From Neisseriales bacterium (GTDB lineage Bacteria > Pseudomonadota > Gammaproteobacteria > Burkholderiales > Q3-R57-64), in assembly GCA_016699915.1 (NCBI GenBank), contig CP064990.1, positions 448,671 through 512,670 of the forward strand: a DNA stretch of 64,000 nt. Reading direction: 5' to 3'. The translations under genes and the position numbers were made by a program. Of the stretch, positions 57,871 to 58,648 are shown one piece after another. Below the pieces are notes generated by a model. That model searched no databases, was not told the origin of the DNA, and saw nothing but the letters and a program-made list of their open reading frames with translations. The first letter of the stretch is position 1. Each line of letters starts with the position of its first letter.

Positions 57871-58648
57871 AGAACTCTGGGCCATACAGCAGTCTAAAGT
57901 TACACACAAACCTGATAATCCAACTTTCCAAACCATGCAAAGCAGAGAAGAAGAATTGAGTGACGAAGTAATGGTGATGCGAGATGAGATAAAAAGCTTA
58001 CTAACAACTCTGCAGTACGACGAGCGATCCAGGTACGAAGAAAAAACTCCTACAGGAAAAGTAGAACCAAAACCGCTGTACGAAGAGCCGCCCAGCATAA
58101 CACGGGGGGAAGACGCATTATTAACTATATATCGCGAAGCAGAATCTATAGGAGAGATGCAAGCACCATCCAGCATAACGGATGAAGAACAGTTTCAAAG
58201 CATTAGTAGGAGTAAGAGAAAGCGATTAAAGGCAGAATTTGCAATAATAAGAAAAGAGCTTGAACAATTAAAACACGGCGAGCTAAGCATACCCCAAACA
58301 ACTTCTTTCTGGAACTGGAAAACTGCCCTTGGAGCCGGTGGAGCCGGGGTTGGATTAGTAGCGTTAGGATTTGCAATTGGCTACGTAGCCAGCCTGCTAA
58401 TAATAGATGATGACGACGACGGAGAAGAAACGACTACAGAAGATACGACCGGAGAAGAAACGACTACAGAAGATACGACCGGAGAAGAAACGACTACAGA
58501 AGATACGACCGGAGAAGAAACGACTACAGAAGATACGACCGGAGAAGAAACGACTACACCTCCTGAAGAAGGAAGTACTACCACAGCAACACCTGCCACA
58601 CCAACATCAATTCCAAATAGTGGGGGGGGGGGGCAGGCGGTGGATTAG
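56684..58648 (+). CDS. Giant-gene part 2: coiled-coil repeat protein with C-terminal Gly/Ala-rich hydrophobic segment and acidic Thr-rich tandem repeat
   Basis: 654-aa ORF whose first candidate start is TTG 56684. The frame is actually open from 56573 through the G10 tract. It contains two repeats of about 200 aa (600-nt period), a TM-like ALGAGGAGVGLVALGFAIGYVASLLII segment and (GEETTTEDTT)x4. It ends 13 nt after the G12 tract. Confidence 0.7.
   Translation: MKFHVDLPERFNKEIETRLANLKKDLLVIDQQTAIVHELAEQKRTIQKFFGSGNLKEPTINEEARLLTARYIKELEQRIVELDTATEKINKELREVSLTETVSRIYKNELRKIKEAKIQLTSALQSALEQLSKLPSITDEKSLKPDTPSAKKTEEPQPTSTTVPAERNPTEEVKATPQYDETPSIMDEEEPLTPSSNQGILESYVDLPLQISLLESIQHPTKEDVEQLANLRKDLRNQIAQQIAIISRLESQNKAIHNSLKSGRLTIAEESNEKYIDKLTQRIDEFNTVIEEINERLARQSFLIDSAKTVYETQLRKMEDEKKQLESALQVALERIHNSSLTAADEISTIHNTQLRKMEDEKKQLESALQVALEVTEEKSPSEINVLGKKIDDINTELWAIQQSKVTHKPDNPTFQTMQSREEELSDEVMVMRDEIKSLLTTLQYDERSRYEEKTPTGKVEPKPLYEEPPSITRGEDALLTIYREAESIGEMQAPSSITDEEQFQSISRSKRKRLKAEFAIIRKELEQLKHGELSIPQTTSFWNWKTALGAGGAGVGLVALGFAIGYVASLLIIDDDDDGEETTTEDTTGEETTTEDTTGEETTTEDTTGEETTTEDTTGEETTTPPEEGSTTTATPATPTSIPNSGGGGQAVD
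57619..57804 (+). repeat. Perfect 66-nt direct repeat at a 120-nt period
   Basis: 57619-57684 is identical to 57739-57804 and encodes TQLRKMEDEKKQLESALQVALE twice. Confidence 0.95.
58421..58558 (+). repeat. Perfect 30-nt tandem repeat, 4.6 copies
   Basis: GGAGAAGAAACGACTACAGAAGATACGACC occurs four times (58421-58540) plus an 18-nt partial copy. It encodes (GEETTTEDTT)4-GEETTT. Confidence 0.95.
58622..58633 (+). repeat. Homopolymeric G12 tract at the ORF2/ORF3 junction
   Basis: Counted directly: nine g at 58622-58630 plus three g at 58631-58633. Confidence 0.95.

What the first reader, a model, noticed from the sequence alone, without database searches (positions are those of the whole stretch)
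58622..58633. G12 homopolymer positioned as a second switch between giant-gene parts 2 and 3
With G12, ORF2 ends after ...IPNSGGGGQAVD*. With G13 or G10, reading continues as ...NSGGGG-AGGGLVLGLLGLLGAGAAAFMMMNDTDEE... into ORF3 and reaches the OMP-type C-terminus. With G11, a 24-codon tail (RRWISIGTLRLTRSWCCSFHDDE*) ends at 58706. Two independent tracts in one gene would give combinatorial expression of a truncated secreted form, an intermediate form and a full-length barrel-terminated form. In the sequenced state both switches are in the non-fusing setting.
Basis: partly seen in the sequence, partly recalled or inferred. Interest (0 to 1): 0.75.

Follow-up and report, generated by a model that had tools for sequence, protein, structure and literature searches.

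The report
Poly-G frame switch in giant envelope gene
A run of twelve G's sits exactly where the reading frame breaks near the end of one giant gene for an exported, porin-like protein in an uncultured small-genome bacterium, so it is most likely an ordinary slippage-prone on/off switch, but its exact length in this low-coverage Nanopore-based assembly cannot be trusted.

Summary
It is not chance: apart from G10 at 56580-56589, the longest G or C run in the 64 kb is 6. The frame changes inside a 31-nt interval around G12, and codon usage switches frame there. The downstream frame then encodes the second of the protein's only two hydrophobic helices and a C-terminus ending in Phe that weakly matches porin C-termini. 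The far N-terminus weakly matches porin N-terminal/middle parts. So the three annotated ORFs are one 3,547-codon gene.

The window comes from CP064990, a circular 0.91-Mb 'Neisseriales bacterium' MAG from activated sludge. It was assembled from Nanopore reads at 23x and polished once with Illumina at 12x. A ±1 error in a G12 run is therefore quite possible, and 'both switches OFF' is not established.

Best reading (about 0.5): a slipped-strand contingency switch of the kind known in Neisseria and Campylobacter. Main rival (about 0.3): the gene is in frame and the consensus length is wrong. No tract-length variation could be tested, because no other copy of the locus was found. The mechanism is known; the protein's architecture is the more unusual part.

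The parts
48697..56619 (+). ORF1 as sequenced (2640 codons, frame 0; QQS16302.1 / IPK86_02350). It holds a conserved signal peptide (48697-48768), a porin-like beta-rich N-terminal region (to about 49770) and a long charged, coiled-coil-like region.
56580..56589 (+). First homopolymer, G10. G9 or G12 would join frame 0 to frame 1 (ORF1 to ORF2).
56591..58648 (+). Middle part of the gene in frame 1 (ORF2; QQS16303.1 / IPK86_02355). The coding signal begins at the G10 tract, 31 codons upstream of the first possible start codon (TTG 56684).
58322..58411 (+). First of the only two strongly hydrophobic helices in the fused protein (residues 3209-3238).
58416..58558 (+). In-frame tandem repeat of 30 nt x 4.8 copies, 99% identical. 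It encodes acidic ETTTEDTTGE units between the two helices.
58618..58620 (+). TAG that closes frame 0 one nucleotide before the tract. It marks the upstream limit of the frame-change interval.
58622..58633 (+). The finding: a G12 homopolymer read as Gly codons. G13 or G10 joins frame 1 to frame 0.
58646..58648 (+). TAG that ends the ORF2 frame 12 nt after the tract.
58627..58704 (+). Second hydrophobic helix (fused residues 3311-3336, GGGAGGGLVLGLLGLLGAGAAAFMMM). It is readable only in frame 0, and its Gly-rich start is encoded by the tract itself.
58633..59340 (+). C-terminal part of the gene in frame 0 (ORF3; QQS16304.1 / IPK86_02360, annotated from TTG 58651).
59023..59337 (+). Last 105 codons: a porin-like C-terminal strand region ending ...TFTAGIDLMIRF. 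It has a terminal Phe and hydrophobic residues at positions 3, 5, 7 and 9 from the end.

Best explanation
The G12 run is a real, slippage-prone homopolymer inside one 10.6-kb gene (48697-59340) for a 3,547-residue exported envelope protein. During replication the run gains or loses G's by slipped-strand mispairing. Lengths of 10, 13 or 16 keep translation in frame through the second membrane helix and the C-terminal porin-like strands with the assembly signal (ON). Lengths of 9, 12 or 15 stop after 4 codons, and lengths of 11 or 14 stop after 24 codons (OFF, or a product that cannot assemble). The G10 run 2,033 nt upstream works the same way, so the full-length protein is made only when both runs are in register.

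Shown: the tract exists, it is statistically exceptional, the frame logic holds, and the three ORFs form one gene. Inferred: the tract length actually varies in the population, and this variation is used as an ON/OFF contingency switch, as in Neisseria and Campylobacter poly-G loci.
For: - **Tract and frames:** tract and frame consequences were verified.
- **Outlier runs:** G10 and G12 are the only G/C runs longer than 6 in 64 kb, both lie in this gene on the coding strand, and each sits at a frame break.
- **Rare codon:** GGG is the rarest Gly codon.
- **Codon usage:** the codon-usage score flips from frame 1 to frame 0 exactly at the tract.
- **Protein logic across the junction:** the second of only two hydrophobic helices starts in the tract.
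- **Porin-like ends:** the ORF1 N-terminus and the ORF3 C-terminus match the N-terminal/middle and C-terminal parts of porin models collinearly. The score rises only with the true C-terminus: Pfam Porin_4 16.9 to 23.5 bits, against 15.8-18.8 for shuffled, reversed or mid-protein controls. NCBIfam PorB gives E 8.8e-5, against no hit with the shuffled C-terminus.
- **No decay:** the 686 and 240 codons downstream of the breaks carry no other stops.
- **Clean assembly elsewhere:** 20 of 20 other genes tested in the window are full length, and A8/A9 runs break no frame.
- **Relative:** in a relative's orthologue a T10-A-C20 tract lies 20 nt upstream of the start codon, and a contig from a second sample breaks exactly there.
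- **Lineage and literature:** the host is Neisseriales-related. In N. meningitidis, homopolymers of 8 or more were mostly variable even within single colonies, and G/C tracts dominate the strong phase-variable candidates, mainly in surface proteins (PMC5084427).
- **Weak independent support:** the exact 229-aa ORF3 product is also listed from a Logan read assembly, which implies the same closed frame there. This is weak because the contig could not be retrieved.
Against: No tract-length polymorphism was observed. The only copy of the locus is the MAG itself. The reported polymorphic rate of the MAG is very low, 0.00022. The consensus length comes from 23x Nanopore plus one Racon round with 12x Illumina, so the OFF state may be an artefact. 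The only relative found is not covered at this position, so conservation of the tract is unknown. That relative's gene carries an in-frame TAA, which could mean the family is decaying. The surface location of the protein rests on sub-threshold porin matches, and the structure models are unusable.
Confidence: 0.5

Rival explanations
1. Consensus-length error. The gene is one intact open reading frame in most or all cells (for example G12 at the first tract and G13 at the second). The assembly miscalled both long homopolymers by 1-2 bases, and PGAP therefore split the gene into three 'hypothetical proteins'.
For: The source is CP064990: a CANU assembly of Nanopore reads, then Racon, two rounds of medaka and one Racon round with Illumina, at 22.7x Nanopore and 12.1x Illumina coverage. 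Homopolymers of 10 or more remain problematic even for newer Nanopore chemistry, and indels in homopolymers are the classic cause of fragmented gene calls (PMC9262707). The only two frame breaks in the window are at the two longest homopolymers. Both parts downstream of the breaks are free of further damage. Undercalls of 2 and 1 bases would restore both frames.
Against: All A8/A9 runs and all 20 other genes checked are in frame, so polishing worked in general. The exact 229-aa ORF3 product is also recorded from a Logan read-based assembly, which needs a tract length that is a multiple of 3 there too. That contig could not be inspected. Even if this rival is true, a G12-13 run in a coding region would still be hypermutable, so it does not exclude phase variation.
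Confidence: 0.3
2. Recent pseudogene. The frameshifts are real and fixed, the gene is dead, and it is on its way out of a shrinking 0.91-Mb genome.
For: The genome is reduced: 912,463 bp, circular, CheckM 74%. The relative's orthologue carries an in-frame TAA in two samples.
Against: There is no further stop in 686 and 240 codons after the breaks, and codon usage is kept in the proper frames. Both lesions sit in improbable G runs rather than at random sites. The relative's frame also stays open for more than 1,400 codons after its TAA. A frameshift in a G12 run reverts easily, so 'fixed' is hard to maintain.
Confidence: 0.08
3. Recoding. The DNA is constantly out of frame, and RNA-polymerase slippage (or ribosomal frameshifting) on the G runs restores the frame in a fraction of messages, as at poly(A) tracts in endosymbionts and in Citrobacter tssM.
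For: Long homopolymers promote transcriptional slippage. Frameshifts rescued this way are documented in reduced genomes and secretion genes (PMC5009743, PMC4256274 and PMC3017870).
Against: No stimulatory RNA structure follows either tract (z -0.45, and a -3 kcal/mol hairpin). The two tracts need shifts in opposite directions (+1 at the first, -1 at the second), so the joint yield would be very low. The documented bacterial cases involve A/T runs. Conservation of the frameshifts could not be tested.
Confidence: 0.07
4. Three separate genes in an operon. The G runs merely lie near gene boundaries.
For: PGAP annotated three CDSs. ORF3 has a TTG and ATG codons shortly after the tract.
Against: The coding signal in the ORF2 frame starts at the G10 tract, 31 codons before any start codon. 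Neither ORF2 nor ORF3 has a signal peptide of its own, and the signal-peptide-like stretch is at the ORF1 N-terminus; only two strongly hydrophobic segments score in the whole fused protein, residues 3209-3238 and 3311-3336. ORF3 nonetheless ends in an outer-membrane beta-signal, and its porin-like C-terminus complements the ORF1 N-terminus. The frames abut within 31 and 48 nt, exactly at the runs.
Confidence: 0.03

Closest known systems
Poly-G/poly-C contingency loci of Neisseria (e.g. hmbR, hpuA, pilC, lgt genes) and Campylobacter jejuni (about 29 poly-G/C tracts per genome)
   Same: An intragenic G/C homopolymer of 8 or more. Length changes that are not multiples of three switch between a full-length and a truncated product. 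The tract is a strong outlier against the genome background. The gene product is exported or envelope-associated. The host is related to Neisseriales (PMC3352162 and PMC4965091).
   Different: Variation has not been observed here. The host is an uncultured 0.91-Mb-genome bacterium from activated sludge, not a known animal pathogen. The tract lies at 93% of a 3,547-codon gene, so OFF removes only the last 231 residues. Classical switches usually lie near the 5' end.
Genes controlled by two repeat tracts (N. meningitidis porA: poly-G in the promoter plus a homopolymer in the coding region; H. pylori sabA: promoter poly-T plus coding CT repeats) - from my own knowledge, not checked here
   Same: Two independent hypermutable tracts act on one outer-membrane protein gene.
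   Different: Here both tracts are intragenic frame switches placed in series, 2,033 nt apart. The known cases combine one promoter tract with one coding tract.
C. jejuni cj0031/cj0032, where a poly-G tract fuses two annotated ORFs into one protein (PMC4889913, listed)
   Same: The annotation shows adjacent ORFs that become a single protein at another tract length.
   Different: That gene encodes a cytoplasmic restriction-modification enzyme. This one encodes a giant exported protein and has two such junctions.
Frameshifts at homopolymers rescued by transcriptional slippage (Blochmannia/Buchnera poly(A); Citrobacter rodentium tssM)
   Same: A reduced genome, with a frame break exactly at a long homopolymer in an otherwise intact gene.
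   Different: The known cases are A/T runs. Here the runs are G runs, two opposite shifts are needed, and there is no stimulatory structure.
Homopolymer indel artefacts in Nanopore-based MAGs
   Same: Gene calls are fragmented exactly at the longest homopolymers of a low-coverage R9-era assembly.
   Different: All other homopolymers and genes in the window are in frame. The existence and placement of two extreme G runs in one gene is itself biological.

Membership tests
Simple-sequence-repeat (slipped-strand) phase-variable contingency locus | Hypermutable repeat (G/C homopolymer of about 8 or more) inside the reading frame or promoter | tested here: met
   G12 at 58622-58633 and G10 at 56580-56589, both read as Gly codons.
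Simple-sequence-repeat (slipped-strand) phase-variable contingency locus | Gain or loss of repeat units switches between a full-length and a truncated product | tested here: met
   In-silico variants G8-G15: lengths 10 and 13 give the 916-residue ORF2+3 fusion, and all others stop within 4 or 24 codons.
Simple-sequence-repeat (slipped-strand) phase-variable contingency locus | Tract is over-represented relative to the genome background | tested here: met
   The next-longest G/C run in 64 kb is 6. Expectation is 0.0003 for G12. Only 2 runs of 9 or more occur in 1.41 Mb of other betaproteobacterial DNA. The whole genome was not available.
Simple-sequence-repeat (slipped-strand) phase-variable contingency locus | Tract length differs within a population or between strains | not testable with these tools
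   No reads are available. An exact-flank scan of metagenome contigs found 0 matches. Protein and locus searches found only the MAG itself.
Simple-sequence-repeat (slipped-strand) phase-variable contingency locus | Product is a surface or host-interaction determinant | tested here: inconclusive
   A conserved signal peptide, a C-terminal Phe beta-signal and weak collinear porin matches. No family threshold was reached.
Simple-sequence-repeat (slipped-strand) phase-variable contingency locus | Orthologues also carry hypermutable tracts | tested here: inconclusive
   The relative's orthologue has T10-A-C20 just upstream of its ATG. Its contigs do not reach the position homologous to G12.
Gram-negative trimeric porin (Pfam Porin_4 / NCBIfam PorB) | Score at or above the curated family threshold | tested here: not met
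   Porin_4: 16.9 bits (N-terminus alone) and 23.5 bits (N+C), against a threshold of 27. PorB_Neis: 22 bits against 480. The relative's N-terminus gives no porin hit.
Gram-negative trimeric porin (Pfam Porin_4 / NCBIfam PorB) | Signal peptide and C-terminal beta-signal (terminal Phe; hydrophobic at positions 3, 5, 7, 9 from the end) | tested here: met
   N-terminus ...LLVWLCFAQPTVALS, conserved in the relative. C-terminus AGIDLMIRF. Both judged by inspection.
Gram-negative trimeric porin (Pfam Porin_4 / NCBIfam PorB) | Beta-barrel fold | tested here: inconclusive
   The AlphaFold2 model of the N-terminus shows long beta-hairpins, but pLDDT is 35. The ORF3 model has pLDDT 32. The profile gave no PDB sequence match.
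Programmed ribosomal frameshift / programmed transcriptional slippage | Stimulatory RNA structure a few nucleotides downstream of the slip site | tested here: not met
   The fold of 58634-58720 has z -0.45. The fold of 56590-56676 gives only a -3 kcal/mol hairpin.
Programmed ribosomal frameshift / programmed transcriptional slippage | Frameshift conserved in orthologues | not testable with these tools
   No orthologue sequence covers either tract.
Decaying pseudogene | Several independent disabling mutations and loss of the coding signal | tested here: not met
   Only the two breaks at the G runs are present. There are 686 and 240 stop-free codons after them, and codon usage is kept.

The most novel reading that the evidence does not exclude
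The gene encodes a so far undescribed kind of envelope protein. A porin-like barrel has its first strands and its last strands separated by a roughly 3,000-residue coiled-coil-rich insertion. That insertion ends in a two-helix hydrophobic hairpin around a variable acidic repeat. The hairpin could be lodged in the inner membrane, or inserted into a host membrane by this small-genome bacterium. Completion of the barrel would be gated by two hypermutable poly-G tracts in series. Only one other member of this family was detectable among 1.8 billion representative proteins.
Probability: 0.25. Interest if true: 0.65.

Novelty: new member of a known kind. Interest (0 to 1): 0.38.

Why it matters
If tract length really varies, this would show classical poly-G contingency switching outside the well-studied animal pathogens. 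The host is an uncultured, genome-reduced Neisseriales relative living in activated sludge. The switch would mark the giant protein as the organism's key variable surface or host-contact factor. It also has a practical side. Three 'hypothetical proteins' in GenBank (QQS16302-QQS16304) are almost certainly one gene. Long homopolymers in Nanopore-based MAGs deserve read-level checking before they are called either pseudogenes or switches.

Tried and rejected
- **Homologue searches with ORF2+ORF3, ORF3 alone and the ORF1 N-terminus:** they returned only the MAG's own proteins.
- **Exhaustive HMMER with the N-terminus:** besides the MAG's own protein it found only two fragments from one relative. 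That relative's contigs (L001-L003) stop before the tracts.
- **Exact-flank DNA scan of metagenome contigs for other tract lengths:** 0 matches.
- **Alignment-based locus scans of genome and metagenome collections:** 0 relatives.
- **PurA scan:** it showed only that no close relative exists among species representatives, with a best identity of 65%. None of those 80 loci holds a homologue of the giant gene.
- **Contig look-ups for ORF2 and ORF3:** not on record, so the Logan copy could not be inspected.
- **PDB sequence search with the N-terminal profile:** nothing.
- **Structure prediction:** The N-terminus with a 2-sequence alignment (pLDDT 35) and ORF3 alone (pLDDT 32) were too poor for fold search.
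- **Promoter/terminator scan inside the gene:** nothing above shuffles.
- **Frameshift-stimulating RNA structure:** rejected.
- **Three independent genes, and an old pseudogene:** both rejected on frame and coding evidence.

Full report
**1. The observation**

The sequence at 58620-58639 reads GT GGGGGGGGGGGG CAGGCG. The G run is exactly 58622-58633, 12 bases.

A second run, G10, lies at 56580-56589. These are the only G or C runs longer than 6 in the whole 64-kb window, which has 41% G+C. With the window's base frequencies one expects 0.006 G10 and 0.0003 G12 runs. In 1.41 Mb of other betaproteobacterial DNA fetched later, only two G/C runs of 9 or more occurred. GGG is the rarest glycine codon in the window's housekeeping genes (10%), so four GGG codons in a row are improbable in themselves.

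- G12, G9 and G15 end the ORF2 frame at ...SGGGGQAVD*.
- G13 and G10 read on as ...SGGGGAGGGLVLGLLGLLGAGAAAFMMMNDTDEE... to ...AGIDLMIRF*.
- G11 and G14 give the 24-codon tail ending at 58706.

**2. One gene, not three**

ORF1 (48697-56619, frame 0), ORF2 (to 58648, frame 1) and ORF3 (to 59340, frame 0) abut exactly at the two runs.

- At the G12 run, the downstream frame is closed by TAG 58618-58620, one base before the run. The upstream frame ends 12 nt after it.
- At the G10 run, the corresponding interval is 56570-56619.
- A codon-usage score trained on 21 other genes of the window switches from frame 1 to frame 0 at 58550-58625, and from frame 0 to frame 1 at the first run. There the coding signal begins 31 codons before any possible start codon of ORF2.

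Removing one G at the first run and adding one at the second gives a single 3,547-codon frame.

The protein makes sense only when fused. It has one signal-peptide-like N-terminus, conserved in the sole relative. It has only two strongly hydrophobic helices in its 3,547 residues. These flank a perfect 30-nt x 4.8 acidic tandem repeat, and the second helix begins with the glycines encoded by the G12 run and is readable only in the downstream frame.

The first 400 and last 147 residues are aromatic-rich, unlike the charged middle. Residues 70-170 of ORF1 weakly match positions 71-169 of 310 in Pfam Porin_4. The last 105 residues of ORF3 weakly match positions 287-324 of 344 in the Neisseria PorB model, and the C-terminal end of a TorF-type porin model.

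Joining the true C-terminus to the N-terminus raises Porin_4 from 16.9 to 23.5 bits with a second matched stretch. It also gives PorB an E-value of 8.8e-5. Shuffled, reversed or mid-protein controls give 15.8-18.8 bits, or no hit. These scores are below the family thresholds, so I do not file the protein as a porin. The collinear, control-tested signal still supports the view that the N-terminus of ORF1 and the C-terminus of ORF3 belong to one barrel-type protein.

The C-terminus AGIDLMIRF has the terminal Phe and the alternating hydrophobic residues typical of outer-membrane proteins. That pattern is established knowledge, judged here by inspection.

**3. Where the sequence comes from, and why that matters**

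ORF1, ORF2 and ORF3 are QQS16302.1, QQS16303.1 and QQS16304.1 (IPK86_02350, IPK86_02355 and IPK86_02360), annotated 'MAG: hypothetical protein [Neisseriales bacterium]', on a 912,463-bp contig.

Supplementary Data 3 of Singleton et al. 2021 (PMC8012365) lists this genome as Fred_18-Q3-R57-64_MAXAC.425_cln, accession CP064990:
- a single circular contig
- CheckM completeness 74%
- GTDB order Burkholderiales with no family assigned
- 16S rRNA 90% identical to Paludibacterium
- Illumina coverage 12.1x and Nanopore coverage 22.7x
- polymorphic rate 0.00022

The assembly method was CANU on Nanopore reads, then Racon, two rounds of medaka and one Racon round with Illumina reads. The same laboratory states that indels in homopolymers fragment gene calls, and that runs of 10 or more remain problematic even with newer chemistry (PMC9262707).

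So the existence of the two runs is secure, but their exact lengths are not. The claim that both switches are in the non-fusing setting is not established.

Two points argue against a grossly bad consensus. All 20 other genes I tested in the window give full-length family matches, and none of the nine A8/A9 runs breaks a frame. The exact 229-residue ORF3 product is also listed from a Logan read assembly, which requires the same closed frame there. I could not retrieve that contig, so this is only a hint.

**4. Relatives**

Word-indexed searches of 5.8 billion clustered proteins with ORF2+ORF3, ORF3 and the ORF1 N-terminus returned only the MAG's own proteins. An exhaustive HMMER search of 1.8 billion representative proteins with the N-terminus found, besides the MAG's own protein, only two fragments. 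They come from JGI metagenome 3300037010, and cluster mates of one of them come from JGI sample 3300035180. All belong to one relative (48% identity at the N-terminus, about 30% further on).

Two things were seen there:
- A T10-A-C20 tract lies 20 nt upstream of the orthologue's ATG. The contig from the other sample breaks exactly at that tract, which suggests a real long homopolymer rather than a read artefact.
- A single in-frame TAA occurs in an otherwise open frame of about 2,370 codons, and it is present in both samples.

The first observation fits a gene family that attracts hypermutable tracts. The second leaves room for decay.

Scans of the genome and metagenome collections with the N-terminal alignment found nothing. 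PurA is at most 65% identical to any species representative.

**5. Mechanism and rivals**

A G12 run in DNA is intrinsically unstable. In N. meningitidis, homopolymers of 8 or more were mostly variable within single colonies, and G/C runs dominate the strong phase-variation candidates, mainly in surface proteins (PMC5084427).

My best explanation is therefore a slipped-strand ON/OFF switch. It controls whether the last 231 residues (second helix, linker, porin-like C-terminus with the assembly signal) are made, and it acts in series with the G10 switch. With two independent tracts and no selection, 'both OFF' is the most likely single state (4 in 9), so the sequenced state is compatible with this reading.

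I think the truncated products are OFF states rather than useful isoforms, because they lack the C-terminal signal. That is inference.

The rivals:
- **Consensus-length error (0.3).** The gene would be intact. This does not exclude variability.
- **Recent pseudogene (0.08).** It is disfavoured because no other lesion has accumulated.
- **Recoding by polymerase or ribosome slippage (0.07).** No stimulatory structure follows either run, and the two runs need shifts in opposite directions.
- **Three separate genes (0.03).**

**6. Comparison with what is known, and verdict**

This works like the poly-G contingency loci of Neisseria and Campylobacter, including cases where a run fuses two annotated ORFs (cj0031/32). 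Two tracts acting on one outer-membrane protein gene are also known (porA, sabA; from my own knowledge).

The defining feature that would make it a member, observed tract-length variation, could not be tested. I therefore rate it as a probable new member of a known kind. The setting is unusual: an uncultured 0.91-Mb Neisseriales relative from activated sludge, with the switch at 93% of a giant gene.

The more unusual item is the protein itself. It is an apparently split porin-like barrel carrying a roughly 3,000-residue insertion with a two-helix hairpin, and it has almost no relatives in public data. That part rests on weak evidence.

Interest is 0.38. The one decisive step is read-level counting of tract lengths in the original data.

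Noticed in passing
window 48697-49770 and 59023-59337: The N-terminus of ORF1 and the C-terminus of ORF3 match the front/middle and the end of porin models collinearly, with controls negative. This suggests a porin-like barrel interrupted by a roughly 3,000-residue charged, coiled-coil-like insertion. All scores are below family thresholds.
   Followed up: partly
window 58322-58704: The only two strongly hydrophobic helices of the 3,547-residue protein form a hairpin around a perfect 30-nt x 4.8 in-frame tandem repeat (58416-58558; acidic ETTTEDTTGE units). 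The repeat is a likely second, in-frame source of length variation.
   Followed up: partly
L003 6-36 (JGI 3300035180) and L002 start (JGI 3300037010): The only detectable relative has a T10-A-C20 homopolymer block 20 nt upstream of the start codon of the orthologous giant gene. The contig from the other sample ends exactly at that block. It may be a promoter or leader switch, or an assembly-end artefact.
   Followed up: partly
L003 2853-2855; the same codon in L001: A single in-frame TAA interrupts the relative's orthologue after 932 codons, yet the frame stays open for more than 1,400 further codons. It was seen in contigs from two samples.
   Followed up: partly
window 48697-48759: The GenBank start of ORF1 (QQS16302.1, 2620 aa) lies 20 codons inside the ORF and removes the hydrophobic signal-peptide core. 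That core is conserved in the relative. GTG 48697 is the better start.
   Followed up: yes
L002 286 onward versus L003: L002 is identical to L003 for 249 nt of the gene's 5' end, then switches abruptly to unrelated sequence followed by a ThrE-family gene. This is a chimeric short-read contig or a structural variant.
   Followed up: no
whole window: The window is a dense run of intact housekeeping genes: a xanthine-dehydrogenase-like cluster, ClpB, PpiD, Lon, ClpX, ClpP region, trigger factor, GidA/GidB, ATP synthase, GlmU, IspG, HisS, BamB, Der and PurA. The genome is circular and 0.91 Mb, and its PurA is at most 65% identical to any species representative. This points to a deep, genome-reduced betaproteobacterial lineage.
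   Followed up: partly
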